Shown piece by piece: positions 1-22,531 of a stretch of 64,000 bases of DNA. Each line of letters starts with the position of its first letter. Positions within the stretch are counted from its first letter, which is position 1. The DNA is taken from sequence record NC_048748.1; one strand, written 5' to 3'. The translations under genes were made by a program, and so were the position numbers. The DNA is from Escherichia phage vB_EcoS_HdH2. Below the pieces are notes generated by a model. It was not told the origin of the DNA, did no database searches, and saw only the letters and a list, made by a program, of their open reading frames with translations.

Positions 1-71
1 TGTCCAGTGGCCCCCCAGATGAGAATGAGTCTCATTACCGCCCGTTACTATTACCATGCTAACTGTTTCAC

Positions 72-1921: not shown

Positions 1922-3595
1922 TTACTGTACAAAGAATTTACCGTTCTTAAAGTCGATCAAAGTACGCTGGCCGTTCGCATAGGTAATAACATGCGTTTGC
2001 GTCCAGCTTGACGCGCCAACGTTGTAACCCATATCCAGACTACCAGACACGCCGGCAGTGTATACGCCGCCGTAAATGCTGGCGGTGTGAGTGTGCCCCG
2101 TGTTTAATTTGCCCAATTTCTTAAATTGCTTCGGATTGCCACGGCTCCCGTTAATGCCATTGTGACCGTGTACGCCGCATTCAATGCCTGCAATTTTAAA
2201 TGATTGGTCAGTGGTCAGGAAAATAGCGTTAAATTCACAACCTGCAACCTTGCGCAGCGCATAATCTAGCACGTTGAAAGTATCGTCTTTTTCTGCAATA
2301 GCTCCGTAAATCGCAGCATTAAGGCGGTGATATAGTTCCGCGTTGGCTGGATCGTCTTTAATGTTAGCATTACGATCATCAAGCCAACGGGATAACGCCA
2401 GATCATGGTTAGATTCAACAATGATCGTTTGAGCAAAATCGCGCTCCATTGATTCCAGTACGCGCCCGGTATCGATCAAATCATCAATAACCTTATCACG
2501 TCCGGCGGCGTATTGTTTTGCTAGGAATACACCAGACGCACGATTATGATGATTGCGTGATGTAAAATCATGCACGTCATGCACAAACTGATATTTTGGC
2601 TTCAGAATATCAACAAGCCCGTAGGTGTCACCATGCCCCCACGACGCAGCGGCGCACTCCTCATCTAATTTTTCAGCGTGAATATCGCCATATTGTAAAC
2701 CTAAAACGTGCCCCGTTGTTTCATAGCATCCGGCGGGAGTGGCGCAAATATTCAAATCGTAAAACATGCCGCTTTCGTCCATCGTTTCAAGCTGGCGAAC
2801 AAAAAATTCCCCGTCCTCGTCGAACTCAACGACAAGCGCACCAAAGTTATGTAGCGCCTCGGCCTTTTGCCCTGCTTTCTGCTGGATGTAGTTTTTAAGC
2901 GTTGCCGTGCCCGTTGAATACATGCGGCGCACTACTTCACCTTTTAAAGCTGGCACGCTTTCGGCGGTGATTTTAGCCGCCCCGATTGCCAGACCTTCCA
3001 GATTAAGCGCCGTTGCAGTTTCAGCGAATCCAGAAAGCGGATAATCTGCGGTAGGTAACACGTTAATCTCCGCCATGAAAGCAAAACGGCGATTATTTAA
3101 AAACACGTTTTTGCTGCAAATATATTTATCAAATGCAGAATCATATTTGATTCCGTCCGCGCCCTCACCATTTTGGAATCCGTTTTTATTATAAATATAC
3201 TTAGAAACAAGCAAATCAGCGCCGATAAACTGGGCATATTGTTCAAGCGAGGCTAAAAAGTTTTTATGCGGGAAAGTATTATTCTGAATCGAGGTAATAA
3301 TAAAGCGTTTGCCTTGTTTTACTTCCCAGCTTTCCACCGTGCTAGAAATAACTCCGGCGGCTTCAGGGCGGTCATCGTTTTTAATAGCTTTTACAGTTTT
3401 TGCCGCTTTTGGTTTCGCTGGTTTATTTGCTTCCAGCCAATCACAAATAGCGGTGGAATGCTTTGGAGTATCGTAAACCGCTTTCGAAATATCGTCGCAT
3501 ACTTCCAGTTTAGTAGCGCGCAGACGTTTACCATAGAAATTGAAGTCAGCGGCAAGGTTCAGGATAACGGTTTGTTTTTCTGCGGAAATAATCAT
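1922..3595 (-). CDS. A1: Pre-early protein A1 (metallophosphoesterase-like)
   Basis: 557 aa; GDIH and HGHNG...GHTH phosphoesterase-like motifs; size and position match T5 A1. Confidence 0.7.
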   Translation of the reverse strand: MIISAEKQTVILNLAADFNFYGKRLRATKLEVCDDISKAVYDTPKHSTAICDWLEANKPAKPKAAKTVKAIKNDDRPEAAGVISSTVESWEVKQGKRFIITSIQNNTFPHKNFLASLEQYAQFIGADLLVSKYIYNKNGFQNGEGADGIKYDSAFDKYICSKNVFLNNRRFAFMAEINVLPTADYPLSGFAETATALNLEGLAIGAAKITAESVPALKGEVVRRMYSTGTATLKNYIQQKAGQKAEALHNFGALVVEFDEDGEFFVRQLETMDESGMFYDLNICATPAGCYETTGHVLGLQYGDIHAEKLDEECAAASWGHGDTYGLVDILKPKYQFVHDVHDFTSRNHHNRASGVFLAKQYAAGRDKVIDDLIDTGRVLESMERDFAQTIIVESNHDLALSRWLDDRNANIKDDPANAELYHRLNAAIYGAIAEKDDTFNVLDYALRKVAGCEFNAIFLTTDQSFKIAGIECGVHGHNGINGSRGNPKQFKKLGKLNTGHTHTASIYGGVYTAGVSGSLDMGYNVGASSWTQTHVITYANGQRTLIDFKNGKFFVQ

Positions 3596-3947: not shown

Positions 3948-4355
3948 TTATTCGCCTGCGGCTTGTTTTACTTCATCGGCAACGCCTAACAGCTGCGCCA
4001 CGGCGTCCAACGTTTCTAATTTTGCGCTTTCCAGTGATGCCAGATCGTCAACGTCTTTGATAATGCCGGAATCAATGGCATGTTTAGCGATAACACGCAC
4101 ATAATGCGCTTTACGAATGGAACTGCCGCCGCCAACTTTACGCGGCTTATCGCTTTTCTGATACGCTTTCGCGCTGGTCAATTTTGAGCGAACGGACACG
4201 GGGGAGGCCGCACCTACTGCTTTCGCAATCTCTTTCAAGCCGTCGCTATTTGCGAAATCTAAACCGTTTTCATTGATTAGCTGCTGATACATGGAAACAG
4301 CCTGCTGGGTGTTTTCTTCATTCCAAGAAAATTTTGCGGTTTTAACGTTAGTCAT
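3948..4355 (-). CDS. pre-early protein, possible A2 homolog (DNA-binding)
   Basis: 135 aa, immediately downstream of A1 as in T5; identity inferred from position and size. Confidence 0.5.
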   Translation of the reverse strand: MTNVKTAKFSWNEENTQQAVSMYQQLINENGLDFANSDGLKEIAKAVGAASPVSVRSKLTSAKAYQKSDKPRKVGGGSSIRKAHYVRVIAKHAIDSGIIKDVDDLASLESAKLETLDAVAQLLGVADEVKQAAGE

Positions 4356-6115: not shown

Positions 6116-6251
6116 TAACTATTTCTTGAGTTATAATATAAATATAAATTAATGAGAAATAATCACTATAAAAATAATCACTACGATAATAATAACAACA
6201 AGAAACTATCGGCCTAAGTGAGAACCACTATCATTTAAGTTATTCACAAAG

Positions 6252-6321
6252 TTATCCACAGCACAAAATGATTTGACACGATAGGCGGCGATATACGGGC
6301 TTATCCACAGACTTATCCACA
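6252..6321 (+). promoter_or_regulatory. Three DnaA-box consensus sites (TTATCCACA)
   Basis: ttatccaca at 6252-6260, 6301-6309, 6313-6321. Confidence 0.6.
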
Positions 6322-6347
6322 GGTTATCCTACTGTATAAATATACAG
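6308..6347. repeat. Left 40-bp inverted repeat (includes palindrome ctgtataaatatacag) bracketing the 6.3-9.4 kb segment
   Basis: Reverse complement of 9374-9413 with about 3 mismatches. Confidence 0.65.
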
Positions 6348-6614
6348 GGTAGAAAGGTAGTGTTAACGACTGCAATCAATTTTATGCCGCCTAAAACGCT
6401 TTCTAACGAGCTAAATGCGGTGGGGTAATATTAAAGTAAAGCCGCAACGCGTCGCCCTGGTGGCTTCGCCGTGTTTTGCTCTTTACTATGCCGCTGCGCG
6501 GTTAGCATAAAACTAGGTGTTAGGCAAGGAAAATAAAAAGGTAAAATAATATTTGCCCCTAGAAAGAAAATACCTTTATCATTCACTCACCGATTAACGA
6601 GGGAGGCCGAACAA

Positions 6615-9114: not shown

Positions 9115-9191
9115 TAATCACGGGGCGCAACTATCAGGGAGTGCCCCAATTCCCAAATGAGAATCATTCTCATTTGACCGCGCCCGTGATG

Positions 9192-9251
9192 GTTAGCCCG
9201 CTAACGATTAGGGTGTTACGTGTTGCCTTGTGTGATCGTTAGCGGGCTAAC
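9192..9251. repeat. 17-bp inverted repeat hairpin (gttagcccgctaacgat / atcgttagcgggctaac), each arm internally palindromic
   Basis: Read directly. Confidence 0.6.
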
Positions 9252-9373
9252 TAATTTTTAAGCCTCCTCCAATTTTGCCCTTGTTTTAGTATCCCCACCA
9301 AAATTAAACGCGTTAGAATGCGATTCAGGACGTTTTAGCGGTATATTAGAATTATTCACTACATAGGAATACT

Positions 9374-9413
9374 GTATAAATATACAGTAGGATAAGCTGT
9401 GGATAAGTCTGTT
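9374..9413. repeat. Right 40-bp inverted repeat with DnaA boxes (TGTGGATAA at 9399-9407 and 9472-9480)
   Basis: Reverse complement of 6308-6347. Confidence 0.65.
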
Positions 9414-9675
9414 AATAACGCCTCAAAATGGCTAGGATTCTGTCAAGTCAAATCGTGCTGTTAATAAGTCTGTGGATAACTTAAATAACAGTGTTTCTCA
9501 CTTCCATTCTTAAACGAGAATGATTCTCATTTGCATTCCACTGTCTAACCGATAATCATTTCCTTTCTTAAATGAGAATCATTTCACTTTTTGAATAGTT
9601 CTCATTTCACTTCTTAAATGAGAATCATTATCATTCGCATTCCACTTCTTAAATGATAATGATTCTCATTCAAAG

Positions 9676-9695
9676 TCGCAGGGCAATTGCCCTGC
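9676..9695. repeat. Perfect 20-bp palindrome cgcagggcaattgccctgcg
   Basis: Read directly. Confidence 0.6.
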
Positions 9696-9700
9696 GCTTT

Positions 9701-10438
9701 TGTGCAAATCCGACATGTGCTCCAAGGGTTACGTGCTGGCGTGTATGTGCAAATCCGACAATTTTTGGTAGTGTGCAAATCCGACCCGAAAAATTTATAA
9801 ATTCGTGAGAGTGACGAATCTGTCTCCTAAAAACTCCAGCAATCACGAACTGCGTTCGAATCCTGTGGAATTAGCTAGAGTATGTGCAAATCCGACATGT
9901 GTTGAGCTGTGCGAATCCGATGAAATTTTTGTGACTTCGATGAGAGGGTGTGTGATTGTATAGGTTTGAGGAGAAGATGAGAGAGCGAGAAAAATTTGGG
10001 AGGCTAGAAGGATGTGGGTGCAGGATTGGTGCGGAGCACCTGATTTGCGGGGATTTTGGGGAAGAGTTGAGAAGATTTGGGAAGATTTGAGATAGGTGCA
10101 GAAAAAGCGAAATTTTATTAGCTAAATGGGGCAAAATAGCTTGACAAGTGAAAATTCTTGTGGCTCTAAAAACTCAGGCAATCATGGGCCTTCGGCCCGA
10201 AATAATGCTGCCATTTTCAAGAGATTATATGTTCCTAAAAACTTAGGCGTTTGTGCAAATCCGACCATAAATTTCTAGAAATGCAGTGTGCAAATCCGAC
10301 AGTAATTTCTGGAAATGTGTTTTCAAAAAATGTCTCCTAGAAATAACCGCCCTCCCTATAACCGCCCTGTATAGGAAAACCGGCCTAGGATATTTATAGT
10401 AGATGAGAAACTGCCCTAGAACATGTGCAAATCCGATT
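9701..10438 (+). repeat. Array of at least 7 copies of TGTGCAAATCCGA(C/T) in non-coding DNA
   Basis: Copies at 9701, 9746, 9772, 9883, 10252, 10287, 10425 (degenerate 9908); one extra copy inside a CDS at 12127. Confidence 0.65.
9960..10130 (+). repeat. Polypurine (G/A-rich) tract, almost C-free on the plus strand
   Basis: Strong strand composition asymmetry; ORF 9871-10134 here is low-complexity and probably spurious. Confidence 0.5.
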
Positions 10439-10811
10439 TAAAGTTTAGTGTAAACTCTAGAGTTAGTGCTCAACTATTCCTAGAAACTTAGGAGTCTAGA
10501 AGAAAGTGTTGTGCCATCCTAGCAGAAGAGCGGCAACAGGTGTATCATCTTGAACATAGATATTGCCTTTAAAAATATTTAAATAATATAAAGAAAAAGA
10601 GACCCCCAATTTCATGAGAGTCTCTCCTGGGGGCGCGTGATTAATTACGTGAGTACTCATGCCGTCATACCGCTGTTGCTAGGCCGCAAGCTATACGAGA
10701 CATTCGTGTAATAATCATCGCCCCTAGAGTTAATCAACTAGAGTAGTTGTTAATCTATGAGATTATTATAACATGTTTGGGTATGAGAATGCAAGAACTT
10801 TTTGTTAACTT

Positions 10812-11525: not shown

Positions 11526-11869
11526 ATATCAGACGCTTGCTCCCCTGTTTCTTTCTTTTCTGGCTTAGGTTTTCTTGCAACCTCTGCAAAGGTTCCTTTA
11601 GTTCTTTCTTTAGCTGGAAGATCTACTTTATACCACAGGATTCCTAATTGTTGCGCTAAATGAGCTATATTCTTTGGTGTTATACTTGGAATATCTTCCC
11701 TATCAGAGATATTAGAGATTACACCAAGTAACTCTCCTATTTTAGGCTTATTAGTATTTATAAGAACATACTCTAATGTTTCTATTTCTACATTTTCATC
11801 CTTATAGTAGAGGCTAAGAGTAATTAAATTTTCCCCAGCAGGGGCTATTTTTGTTTTACCAAATATCAT
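11522..11869 (-). CDS. hypothetical protein
   Basis: 115 aa; overlapping stop/start with neighbours. Confidence 0.45.
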   Translation of the reverse strand: MIFGKTKIAPAGENLITLSLYYKDENVEIETLEYVLINTNKPKIGELLGVISNISDREDIPSITPKNIAHLAQQLGILWYKVDLPAKERTKGTFAEVARKPKPEKKETGEQASDI

Positions 11870-12474
11870 TAATTACCTCTTTTATCTTCATTAATAGCAG
11901 CTCCCAACGCCTCCATAATAGCATCCTCTAAACTTCCATGTTTACCAGGATTATTAAAATGAATAGTACAAACAGAACTCCTAGAAACTCCAGCATCCGC
12001 AGGTGCTACGCTTTTCATGTCAGATTCAAAAGCTTCTTGAGTATGTTTCAACTGTGCAGAAGGTCCATAATCTTCACCAACTCGATAGGACTGATTAGAC
12101 GACAGTGTACCACCACATGGAACATTGTGCAAATCCGACGTTATTTTAGGATTATTATTTAATAGTGCAATACCACTTTTTGACCATGGATCACTAACAG
12201 TGGTACTGGGGCGGTTCACCTCAGTCTTCACGAGTTTATAGCCAGCATCTATTAATGCGTTAATAAGGTTATCCGCTGGGATGCGAGCCGTGCCAAAAAT
12301 CTCACGAGCGTTGTTGAGCCTACCTTCAAAACCTTTACATGCTCTAATATTAGTGTGTGCAAAGGTTAGCTTCATAGATTTGAATTGTACAGTAGCAGTT
12401 AAATCTTTAAAGCTATAATCCCATGTATTCAGTTCATGGTCTGGTACTACTTGAATAGATTGTTGTGTAAACAT
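11869..12474 (-). CDS. hypothetical protein
   Basis: 201 aa; contains one TGTGCAAATCCGAC copy. Confidence 0.5.
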   Translation of the reverse strand: MFTQQSIQVVPDHELNTWDYSFKDLTATVQFKSMKLTFAHTNIRACKGFEGRLNNAREIFGTARIPADNLINALIDAGYKLVKTEVNRPSTTVSDPWSKSGIALLNNNPKITSDLHNVPCGGTLSSNQSYRVGEDYGPSAQLKHTQEAFESDMKSVAPADAGVSRSSVCTIHFNNPGKHGSLEDAIMEALGAAINEDKRGN

Positions 12475-21778: not shown

Positions 21779-22531
21779 TTATCCAACTAGTGGTTCTAGC
21801 TCTAAGTCACAGAAGTTATACACTTCTAGTTTAAGGTTATTGATACCATCGAATTTATTAACTAATTCGTGAGTGATATATTTTGCAGGAATACCACTTT
21901 CAGATGGATGATCTGATTTAATAGTGAACTTCTGCTCAGCGGGCACTACATTTACTAGTAAAGAATCCATATCTAAATGGTTCGTTTCTCTGAGTAACTC
22001 TCCTTCATTGGGGAATCTCACATCTGTTATTACGGCGACATCTGGGTCGTCTTTAGCGATGGATTGCTCCAGAATTATGAGCCAAATGCGTTCATGCACC
22101 AGCTGCCTTCCTAGCTCTGTTCCTACGAGCTGTAACATTTTTCTCGGAGAAATAAATAAACTATAAAGTCCGTCTTCTTTATTCTCTGAGATAAGTTGTT
22201 GAGGATTAAGATATTTTTCCTCAAAAATAGGCCAAACGTACGAGAAGTCTTCAAACTTATCGATACCGTACTTAAACCACACATCTCTGGCTCGCTCCAG
22301 TTGAGATTGTGTGACCGTAAACCATTGGTCAATCTCTTTTCCCCTGCGCTCTCCTAGAAACTCTGGAGTTACACCGAGGATTACGGATGCAAGTTCATAA
22401 ACGGGCTTAGCAAAACTGTAACGACGGGATAAACACGTTGGATACGTGTTATTACACCAATCGATAATTAATTTTGCAACGGTATCTTTTCCCGAACCAG
22501 CTTCACCATGTAAACCGACTAATACTGACAT
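21779..22531 (-). CDS. deoxynucleoside monophosphate kinase
   Basis: P-loop GEAGSGKDT at the N-terminus, about 250 aa as for T4/T5 dNMP kinases. Confidence 0.65.
   Translation of the reverse strand: MSVLVGLHGEAGSGKDTVAKLIIDWCNNTYPTCLSRRYSFAKPVYELASVILGVTPEFLGERRGKEIDQWFTVTQSQLERARDVWFKYGIDKFEDFSYVWPIFEEKYLNPQQLISENKEDGLYSLFISPRKMLQLVGTELGRQLVHERIWLIILEQSIAKDDPDVAVITDVRFPNEGELLRETNHLDMDSLLVNVVPAEQKFTIKSDHPSESGIPAKYITHELVNKFDGINNLKLEVYNFCDLELEPLVG

What the first reader, a model, noticed from the sequence alone, without database searches (positions are those of the whole stretch)
9701..10438. Array of TGTGCAAATCCGAC repeats in a 1.4-kb non-coding region
At least seven near-identical copies of the 14-mer at irregular spacing (9701, 9746, 9772, 9883, 10252, 10287, 10425), with a degenerate copy at 9908 and one more inside the CDS at 12127. 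They are interleaved with cctaaaaact(c/t)agg-type repeats. The spacing is irregular, so this is not a CRISPR array; it looks like a clustered protein-binding site field, and it lies where a T5 terminal repeat would end.
Basis: partly seen in the sequence, partly recalled or inferred. Interest (0 to 1): 0.55.

Follow-up and report, generated by a model that had tools for sequence, protein, structure and literature searches.

The report
Known T5 "direct repeat D" array
The repeated 14-mer is real and clearly functional, but it is the already catalogued "direct repeat D" family of the phage T5 injection-stop / terminal-repeat boundary region. What is still unknown is which protein reads it.

Summary
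TGTGCAAATCCGAC occurs exactly at 9701, 9746, 9772, 9883, 10252, 10287 and 12126. Near-copies lie at 9908 and 10424, and a decayed copy at 9810. All are on the + strand (11 hits at ≤2 mismatches versus 0.36 expected).

The window is the left 64 kb of a T5-like phage (Tequintavirus) and starts at the genome's left terminus. GenBank AY587007 (T5) already annotates the same elements, in the same order and spacing, as "direct repeat D copies 1-12". Davison's preprint calls them DRD in "Repeat Region 3" (the iss region) and assigns no function.

What this analysis adds:
- The motif, its strand and its two-cluster layout persist from Escherichia and Salmonella phages to Klebsiella and Vibrio T5-like phages.
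- The two clusters bracket the right end of the terminal repeat (window 10166|10167 by homology).
- The field lies between convergent terminators.
- The copy inside the ORF019 homologue shows no synonymous variation.

Best reading: oriented binding sites for a conserved phage DNA-binding protein. The pre-early protein A2 (restart of DNA transfer) leads slightly. Terminase recognition of the terminal-repeat end is a close rival. Neither is proven. Novelty: already known.

The parts
9701..9714 (+). DRD copy 1 (exact). It starts 3 nt after the CCCTGCGC nick motif.
   Evidence: homologue of T5 DRD1 at 9672
9746..9759 (+). DRD copy 2 (exact)
   Evidence: T5 DRD2
9772..9785 (+). DRD copy 3 (exact)
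   Evidence: T5 DRD3
9810..9824 (+). Decayed DRD copy 4 (AGTGACGAATCTGTC: one inserted base plus substitutions). This copy is intact in T5, K38 and Epseptimavirus.
9883..9896 (+). DRD copy 5 (exact). In relatives it sits either 81 or 71 bp after copy 4.
9908..9921 (+). DRD copy 6 (TGTGCGAATCCGAT)
10252..10265 (+). DRD copy 7 (exact), the first copy outside the terminal repeat
   Evidence: pairwise identity 1.0 in 19 loci
10287..10300 (+). DRD copy 8 (exact)
10424..10437 (+). DRD copy 9 (TGTGCAAATCCGAT)
12126..12139 (+). DRD copy 10, antisense inside the ORF019 homologue (CDS 11869-12474, - strand). It covers codons S-D-L-H.
   Evidence: no synonymous change in 19 unique sequences
9677..9696 (+). 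palJ hairpin, a terminator-like stem ending the rightward pre-early transcription unit. It overlaps the CCCTGCGC motif (9690-9697) that is the T5 7.9% major nick site.
9826..9839 (+). CCTAAAAACTCCAG, a copy of the boundary-type motif inside the terminal repeat
   Evidence: (family D9)
9930..10100 (+). G-rich, C-poor tract (GC skew up to 0.68) between DRD cluster 1 and the boundary block. It contains the T5 'direct repeat A' units.
10105..10225 (+). Most conserved block of the region. It contains TTGACA (10141-10146), ...CTTGTGGCTC|TAAAAACTCAGG with the inferred right end of the terminal repeat at 10166|10167, and a GGGCC-TTCG-GGCCC hairpin (10186-10198).
   Evidence: (0.944 pairwise identity)
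10234..10247 (+). CCTAAAAACTTAGG repeat directly upstream of DRD7
10479..10492 (+). CCTAGAAACTTAGG repeat
10595..10628 (-). Terminator-like hairpin ending the leftward early operon. With palJ it encloses the DRD field in a zone between convergent terminator-like hairpins, where no transcription is predicted to read through.
9370..9479 (+). Upstream iss core: palD (9370-9389) and DnaA boxes TGTGGATAA (9398, 9471). This is the same untranslated region but not DRD.
3948..4355 (-). A2 gene, the candidate trans-acting reader (a pre-early DNA-binding protein). It is not shown to bind DRD.

Best explanation
These are the 'direct repeat D' (DRD) elements of the T5-type Repeat Region 3, the injection-stop (iss) region. 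Each copy is an asymmetric site of about 15 bp, TGTGC(A/G)AATCCGA(C/T)A, usually followed by an A/T tract. All copies point the same way. They form two arrays that bracket the right end of the long terminal repeat. In T5 six copies lie 244-467 bp inside it; here five are intact and one is decayed. Three more lie 86-270 bp outside. The whole field sits between two convergent terminators, where no transcription is predicted to read through. I read them as DNA-level docking sites for one conserved, sequence-specific phage protein. My preferred candidate is the essential pre-early protein A2. In that model A2, made from the first-step-transfer DNA and partnered with A1 (by the literature), binds the DRD ladder that begins 3 nt beyond the 7.9% nick / first-step-transfer end. 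It thereby captures or remodels the paused DNA so that second-step transfer resumes. SHOWN: identity with T5 DRD, non-random clustering, strand polarity, family-wide conservation of motif and layout, the position relative to the terminal-repeat end, and the absence of coding or RNA signal. INFERRED: that a protein binds, that it is A2, and what binding achieves.
For: Identity with the annotated T5 feature:
- T5 record AY587007 annotates 12 'direct repeat D' copies with the same sequence and order.
- Davison's preprint lists nine DRD copies in Repeat Region 3 and gives them no role.

Non-randomness and polarity:
- 11 hits versus 0.36 expected.
- No copy at ≤1 mismatch on the opposite strand in any of about 34 loci.
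- Paired copies occur only on 104-123 kb T5-like contigs in IMG/VR.

Conservation:
- In Tequintavirus and Epseptimavirus the motif and its spacing (46, 26, 31, 81/71, 25/35 | ~344 | 35) are kept.
- Klebsiella Sugarlandvirus, Pantoea AAS21 and two Vibrio lineages (A1 only about 32-34% identical in the Vibrio phages) keep the GTGCAAATCCGA core in two clusters, although the flanks have diverged.
- A logo from 234 copies shows positions 1-5 and 9-13 near-invariant.
- The untranslated region is far more conserved (0.78-0.94) than the flanking genes (0.40-0.49), and DRD columns exceed spacer columns (0.875 vs 0.815, p = 8e-5).
- DRD10 sits in six codons with no synonymous change in 19 unique sequences, while the next four codons vary at wobble positions.

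Not RNA or coding:
- No Rfam hit.
- The field lies between convergent terminators.
- The ORF across the boundary block is stopped in the Klebsiella phages.

A2 as candidate reader:
- A2 is essential and DNA-binding, and its target is unknown (bioRxiv 10.64898/2026.04.02.716235).
- It is found in 891 phage records across Vibrio, Salmonella, Escherichia, Klebsiella and Proteus phages.
- Its helix ...SVRSKL..., which I take to be the DNA-recognition helix, is nearly invariant.
Against: - No binding data exist.
- Proteus Novosibvirus phages keep an A2 homologue (40% identity, helix SVRTKL) but retain only one diverged DRD, next to the nick motif. A full array is therefore not obligatory wherever A2 is present.
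- Three to five copies lie outside the terminal repeat. The arrays bracket the conserved cut site. A pac-type site predicts that layout more specifically than an injection signal does.
- The DRDs lie to the right of the estimated shear point (Davison). During the pause they may not yet be in the cytoplasm where A2 is.
- From memory, and not checked here, A2 was described as a general dsDNA binder.
Confidence: 0.35

Rival explanations
1. The DRDs are a terminus-recognition (pac/cos-like) site. The two arrays would be docking sites for the packaging machinery (a small terminase subunit or equivalent). They would position the nuclease on the conserved boundary block so that concatemers are cut at ...GTGG(C/A)TC|TAAAAA, which creates the right genome end. 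Because the left end is injected first, it is presumably packaged last, so the right end would be where packaging starts.
For: - The arrays bracket the terminal-repeat right end in T5, where the LTR ends at 10139 between DRD6 and DRD7.
- In a 123-kb Klebsiella phage contig, the RTR and LTR copies diverge exactly after CTGTGGCTC.
- The Vibrio phage VCPH record ends between the clusters.
- In Vibrio phage Cody the duplicated ends place 8 copies inside the repeat and 2 outside.
- The block at the cut is the most conserved part of the region (0.944).
[quoted passage not shown] A junction-straddling site explains this.
- From my own knowledge, not checked here: P1 pac (hexamer clusters on both sides of the cut), SPP1 pacL/pacR, lambda cosB R sites, and the short-repeat arrays next to the T7 terminal repeat are comparable layouts.
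Against: - No DRD lies at the left terminal-repeat junction.
- No small terminase subunit was identified or tested here. From memory, the T5 terminase genes lie in the late region, far from the site and outside this window; this was not checked.
- Isolated conserved copies in ORF019 and D13 have no role in this model.
- A recognition motif nearly unchanged from Vibrio to Escherichia phages is unusual for terminase sites.
- Proteus phages lack the arrays.
Confidence: 0.3
2. The DRDs are host-factor sites that form part of the injection stop itself. A conserved gammaproteobacterial DNA-binding protein (DnaA at weak boxes, or another) would bind the entering DNA and hold it at the envelope, as in Davison's DnaA model.
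For: - The reverse complement of DRD, ATTTGCACA, is one mismatch from the relaxed DnaA box TT(A/T)TNCACA.
- True DnaA boxes lie 230-300 bp upstream.
- A motif conserved across phages of different host genera would fit a conserved host protein.
- Complete ejection into FhuA proteoliposomes in vitro implies that cell factors cause the stop (Davison).
Against: - The commonest variants (A6→G; the Vibrio form AGTGCGAAA) change a T that the DnaA-box consensus fixes.
- The non-DnaA half, TCCGA, is invariant.
- The genuine DnaA boxes nearby stay canonical in the same phages.
- The copies lie to the right of the shear point.
- No known host regulator motif was matched.
Confidence: 0.1
3. The DRDs serve another DNA transaction at the repeat end. 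Candidates are end protection or LTR-RTR synapsis for circle or concatemer formation (telomere-like), a polar barrier to replication or exonucleases, or iterons of an auxiliary origin.
For: - In the RTR, cluster 1 lies 244-467 bp from the physical right end.
- It is followed by a G-rich strand running 5'→3' toward that end.
- The A2 model resembles the Rap1, Reb1 and Sap1 DNA-binding domains.
- DnaA boxes plus direct repeats resemble an origin.
Against: - T5 origins were mapped near the genome centre (Davison).
- The spacing shows no helical phasing.
- Nothing here tests these ideas directly.
Confidence: 0.15
4. The copies are neutral relics of local duplication with no function of their own.
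For: Copies do decay or shift in individual phages: D4 in this window, D5 at +71 or +81, and D9 is variable.
Against: - The motif, strand and two-cluster layout are kept across genera whose flanks no longer align.
- The core positions are invariant in 234 copies.
- Synonymous sites are constrained at DRD10.
Confidence: 0.03

Closest known systems
T5 'direct repeat D' (DRD) of Repeat Region 3 / injection stop signal region (GenBank AY587007; Davison bioRxiv 10.1101/866236)
   Same: The 14-15-mer is the same, all copies lie on the + strand, and the order and spacing match. The nick motif sits just before copy 1. Three copies lie outside the LTR, and one lies in the ORF019 homologue.
   Different: This phage has lost copy D4 (decayed at 9810-9824). 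Copies 11 and 12 (in D13) lie beyond the 64-kb window.
Terminase recognition sites built from repeated short motifs around the cut: P1 pac, SPP1 pacL/pacR, lambda cosB (from my own knowledge)
   Same: Clusters of short same-family repeats lie on both sides of a conserved cleavage position at a genome end.
   Different: No terminase binding or terminase dependence is known for DRD. The field is about 740 bp long. Extra conserved copies lie elsewhere in the genome. There is no counterpart at the left end.
Short-repeat arrays next to the T7 terminal repetition (from memory of Dunn and Studier 1983; not checked here)
   Same: Arrays of short direct repeats flank a direct terminal repeat in a virulent phage, and their role has long been unclear.
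   Different: The motif, the repeat length and the scale of the terminal repeat (160 bp vs about 10 kb) all differ. There is no sequence relationship.
Iterons of plasmid and phage origins
   Same: Same-orientation direct repeats lie near DnaA boxes and A/T-rich DNA.
   Different: The spacing is irregular with no helical phasing, no adjacent initiator gene is known, and T5 origins were mapped elsewhere.
DnaA boxes
   Same: The reverse complement of the 5' half of DRD is one mismatch from the relaxed consensus.
   Different: The conservation pattern does not follow the DnaA-box consensus, and the invariant TCCGA half lies outside it.

Membership tests
T5 direct repeat D (DRD) / Repeat Region 3 of Demerecviridae | Consensus TGTGCAAATCCGAC(A) | tested here: met
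   The window has seven exact copies. The T5 annotated copies have the same sequence.
T5 direct repeat D (DRD) / Repeat Region 3 of Demerecviridae | Location in the untranslated region between pre-early and early genes, straddling the LTR/unique junction and just right of the 7.9% nick motif | tested here: met
   The terminal-repeat end is placed by homology only, because the window lacks the RTR.
T5 direct repeat D (DRD) / Repeat Region 3 of Demerecviridae | Copy order and spacing (46, 26, 31, 81, 25 | 344 | 35, 137) and an extra copy in ORF019 | tested here: met
   The window shows 45, 26, (111 = 31+80 with D4 decayed), 25 | 344 | 35, 137, and a copy at 12126.
CRISPR array | Regularly spaced repeats of 23-50 bp with unique spacers of similar length | tested here: not met
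   The unit is 14 bp. Spacings run from 25 to 344 bp. The spacers are themselves conserved between phages.
DnaA box cluster | Match to TT(A/T)TNCACA, with conservation following that consensus | tested here: not met
   There is one mismatch at best. Variants hit consensus positions, and the invariant TCCGA lies outside the box. Real DnaA boxes are at 9398 and 9471.
Terminase recognition (pac/cos-type) site | Lies at or around the terminase cleavage position | tested here: met
   The arrays bracket the terminal-repeat right end in T5, in a Klebsiella phage and in Vibrio phage Cody. For the window itself this is by homology.
Terminase recognition (pac/cos-type) site | Bound by the small terminase subunit and required in cis for packaging | not testable with these tools
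   This needs binding and packaging assays.
Replication-origin iterons | Helically phased direct repeats next to an unwinding element and bound by a cognate initiator | tested here: inconclusive
   DnaA boxes and A/T-rich DNA are nearby, but the spacing is irregular. Literature places the T5 origins near mid-genome.
Structured RNA / known RNA family | Match to an Rfam covariance model | tested here: not met
   Only sub-threshold chance hits were found.

The most novel reading that the evidence does not exclude
The DRD ladder is the missing cis-element of T5 two-step DNA delivery or of long-terminal-repeat formation. On the second it is the recognition array that tells the packaging machinery where to cut the right end of a 10-kb terminal repeat. 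Either would give a molecular handle on a question open since the 1960s-80s.
Probability: 0.6. Interest if true: 0.6.

Novelty: already known. Interest (0 to 1): 0.3.

Why it matters
How T5 stops DNA entry after 8% of the genome and then restarts it is still unexplained. So is how phages with 10-kb direct terminal repeats cut their ends. The DRD array sits exactly at that spot and is conserved across the whole family. It is short enough to test directly by EMSA or ChIP with A2, and by scrambling the single-copy cluster 2 with existing T5 genome-editing tools.

The sequence feature itself is not new. The small additions here are:
- its conservation across the family and its strict polarity;
- the bracketing of the conserved cut site;
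- the constrained copy inside the ORF019 homologue;
- the Novosibvirus exception.

Tried and rejected
- **CRISPR or satellite:** rejected. TRF finds only a 34-bp 1.9-copy unit at 10252-10317 plus the neighbouring DRC and DRA units.
- **RNA element:** no Rfam match.
- **Coding:** the small ORFs over the field are not conserved, and the ORF across the boundary block is stopped in the Klebsiella phages.
- **Promoter array:** the number of promoter-like hits is no more than in shuffles.
- **General association with T5 nick sites:** rejected. DRD1 follows nick 1 by 3 nt, and DRD11/12 lie 368 bp from nick 4. The CCTGCGC at 22343, near where T5's 18.5% nick would fall (percentage from memory), has no DRD.
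- **A shared motif at the left terminal-repeat junction:** none found.
- **A co-occurrence test using Demerecviridae that lack A2:** not feasible, because A2 is nearly universal in the family.
- **Proteus phage Stubb's PhageTerm boundary as an independent terminal-repeat end:** uninformative. It falls exactly at the CCCTGCGC nick motif, so it probably reports the nick.
- **Kenya-K38 and Cody boundaries:** these annotated or derived boundaries lie 26 to about 70 bp left of the T5-type cut. Exact ends outside T5 and the Klebsiella contig are therefore uncertain.
- **Papers not held in the library:** Wang et al. 2005 and Davison 2015.

Full report
**1. The observation**

The 14-mer TGTGCAAATCCGAC occurs exactly at window 9701, 9746, 9772, 9883, 10252, 10287 and 12126. 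It has one mismatch at 10424 and two at 9908. All copies are on the + strand. At ≤2 mismatches there are 11 hits against 0.36 expected, and no shuffle reaches 11. A decayed copy with one inserted base lies at 9810-9824.

The companion CCTAAAAACT(Y)AGG repeats are real: 9826, 10165, 10234 and 10479.

The field lies in a 1.7-kb ORF-free interval (9115-10811) between the last rightward pre-early ORF and the last leftward early ORF. Within that interval it sits between a + strand terminator-like hairpin (9677-9696) and a - strand one (10628-10595).

**2. What the window is**

The window starts at the left terminus of a T5-like genome: TGTCCAGTGGCC... versus T5 TGTCCACTGCC.... The region matches 473 phage records by megablast and 543 by blastn, nearly all Demerecviridae. 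The best match is Salmonella phage Kenya-K38 at 93.9%.

**3. The element is already annotated**

T5 record AY587007 annotates 'direct repeat D' copies as follows:
- copies 1-6 at 9672-9895;
- the LTR end at 10139;
- copies 7-9 at 10225-10409;
- copy 10 at 12073, inside ORF019;
- copies 11 and 12 at 79019 and 79035, inside exo2/D13.

The sequences are identical to those in the window. [quoted passage not shown] It notes that the region overruns the LTR by 270 bp. [quoted passage not shown] The feature is therefore known, and its function is not.

**4. Distribution**

In the complete 108-kb record of Kenya-K45, the only hits at ≤1 mismatch outside the 9-12 kb zone are the two adjacent D13 copies. 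These include a 17-nt exact match to DRD2 plus its flank. D13 is very conserved at the nucleotide level anyway, so these copies cannot be judged separately. An IMG/VR scan for two copies within 8-38 bp found 40 stretches, all on 104-123 kb T5-like contigs.

**5. Conservation**

- Tequintavirus and Epseptimavirus keep the motif, its strand and its spacing: 46, 26, 31, 81 (or 71), 25 (or 35) | ~344 | 35.
- No locus has a copy at ≤1 mismatch on the other strand.
- In an alignment of 19 loci, the untranslated region has pairwise identity 0.78-0.94, against 0.40-0.49 for the flanking genes. DRD columns score 0.875 and spacers 0.815 (p = 8e-5). The top blocks are palD with the DnaA boxes (0.93) and the 10105-10225 boundary block (0.94).
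- The logo from 234 copies is T-G-T-G-C-(A .76/G .21)-A-A-T-C-C-G-A-(C .82/T .18)-(A .65), followed by A/T-rich sequence.
- Klebsiella Sugarlandvirus and Pantoea AAS21 keep the same 14-mer in two clusters. In some Klebsiella phages cluster 2 is 27-bp periodic.
- Vibrio phage VCPH has AGTGCGAAA(C/T)C(G/T)AC. Vibrio phage Cody (Thalassavirus; A1 about 32% identical) has GGTGCAAATCCGAC and variants.
- The wider architecture is also conserved. In order it runs: palindrome AATGAGAAT..ATTCTCATT, palD, DnaA boxes, a lineage-specific repeat block, CC(C)TGCGC, DRD1, cluster 1, G-rich tract, TTGACA...GTGGCTC block, hairpin, cluster 2.
- Proteus Novosibvirus phages are the exception. Only one diverged copy (TGTGCGTAATCGAC) remains after the nick motif. 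At the cluster-2 position there is a variable array of AATAATAGAATGG.

**6. Relation to the terminal-repeat end**

The T5 LTR ends ...CTGTGGATC|TAAAAACTCAGG. The window has ...CTTGTGGCTC|TAAAAACTCAGG, which places the boundary at 10166|10167. That position is inside one of the CCTAAAAACT-type repeats, 245 bp after DRD6 and 86 bp before DRD7.

- In a 123-kb Klebsiella phage contig that carries both repeats, the RTR copy diverges from the LTR copy exactly after CTGTGGCTC.
- In Vibrio phage Cody, self-comparison puts the duplicated segment's edge between eight DRD-like copies and two more.
- The VCPH record ends between its clusters.
- No DRD occurs at the left terminal-repeat junction.

**7. DRD10**

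DRD10 lies antisense in the ORF019 homologue, across the codons for S-D-(L/M)-H. The six codons S-D-L/M-H-N-V show no synonymous change in 19 unique sequences. The next four codons (P-C-G-G) vary at wobble positions, and the upstream protein sequence is highly variable. This suggests selection on the DNA motif itself.

**8. Candidate reader**

A2 (3948-4355, - strand) belongs to PHROG 1725, 'DNA binding protein'. It has homologues in 891 phage records spanning Vibrio to Escherichia phages. Its ...SVRSKL... helix, which I take to be the DNA-recognition helix, is almost invariant.

**9. Mechanism**

I commit, with low confidence (0.35), to the following. DRDs are oriented docking sites for A2. 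The ladder starts 3 nt beyond the first-step-transfer/nick point and lets A2, with A1, engage the paused DNA to restart transfer.

The close rival (0.30) is a pac-like recognition array for cutting the right end of the terminal repeat. It explains better why the arrays straddle the conserved cut. It explains worse the isolated conserved copies, the extreme conservation of the motif and the distance from the terminase genes.

Host-factor binding such as DnaA (0.10) is disfavoured by the conservation pattern. Other end-related roles together get 0.15. Neutral relics get 0.03.

**10. Verdict**

The feature is already known, as T5 DRD in the iss region. Interest is modest, because the element is catalogued, but it remains a directly testable handle on an old open problem.

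Noticed in passing
window 9370-9389 (and 6330-6349): palD, TACTGTATAAATATACAGTA, is one mismatch from the LexA SOS-box consensus TACTGTATATATATACAGTA. A second copy with 3 mismatches lies in the inverted partner region. The CTGT-N8-ACAG core is kept in Klebsiella, Vibrio and Proteus T5-like phages. The Davison preprint never mentions LexA or SOS.
   Followed up: partly
window 9158-9172, 9619-9633, 9654-9668; also 228-242: The 'direct repeat C' palindromes match the Fur 7-1-7 consensus TGATAATNATTATCA with 1-2 mismatches. A perfect Fur box lies at 228-242, inside the dmp ORF (119-853, - strand). In total there are 5 hits against 0.89 expected. This is notable for a phage whose relatives use iron-regulated receptors such as FhuA.
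   Followed up: partly
window 18-36 and 9156-9174, 9513-9531, 9617-9635, 9652-9670: The palindrome AATGAGAATCATTCTCATT occurs only at these five places in 64 kb. One of them is 18 bp from the left genome terminus. The 9153-9187 copy with its GACCGCGCCCG tail is kept almost unchanged in Vibrio phage VCPH.
   Followed up: partly
window 9900-10100: There is a strongly G-rich, C-poor top strand (GC skew up to 0.68) between DRD cluster 1 and the terminal-repeat end. In the RTR it runs 5'→3' toward the physical right end. Klebsiella phages have a canonical four-run G-quadruplex motif here (GGGGTTAATTGGGGATGATGGGGGCAGGGGGCAG; L014 about 3012-3045).
   Followed up: no
beyond the window: Kenya-K45 74657 and 74672 (L006 24657-24685); T5 AY587007 79019-79048: Two adjacent DRD copies lie inside the D13 (SbcC/Rad50-like) gene, encoding NVQILQVQIRQL. 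They lie 368 bp downstream of the T5 64.7% major nick and are conserved in Epseptimavirus. They include a 17-nt exact match to DRD2 plus its flank.
   Followed up: partly
L068 (Proteus phage Stubb NC_048086) record 11415: The 'terminal repeat predicted with PhageTerm' ends exactly after CCCTGCGC, the T5-type nick motif. Read-start based terminus calls in T5-like phages may therefore report the 7.9% nick rather than the true repeat end.
   Followed up: partly
window 22343-22366: A CCTGCGC nick-type motif lies near where T5's 18.5% major nick would fall (that percentage is from memory). Three bases later comes CCTAGAAACTCTGG, a 2-mismatch relative of the CCTAAAAACTYAGG boundary repeat. This is possibly chance.
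   Followed up: no
L062 (Proteus phage 1) locus about 3950-4130; L057 (Vibrio phage VCPH) about 6150-6300: Lineage-specific direct-repeat arrays replace T5 elements at equivalent positions. Proteus phage 1 has about 11 copies of AATAATAGAATGG, but Stubb has only 2-3. VCPH has ten 15-bp units of GCGGTGACAACTGTT where T5 has the DRC repeats.
   Followed up: no
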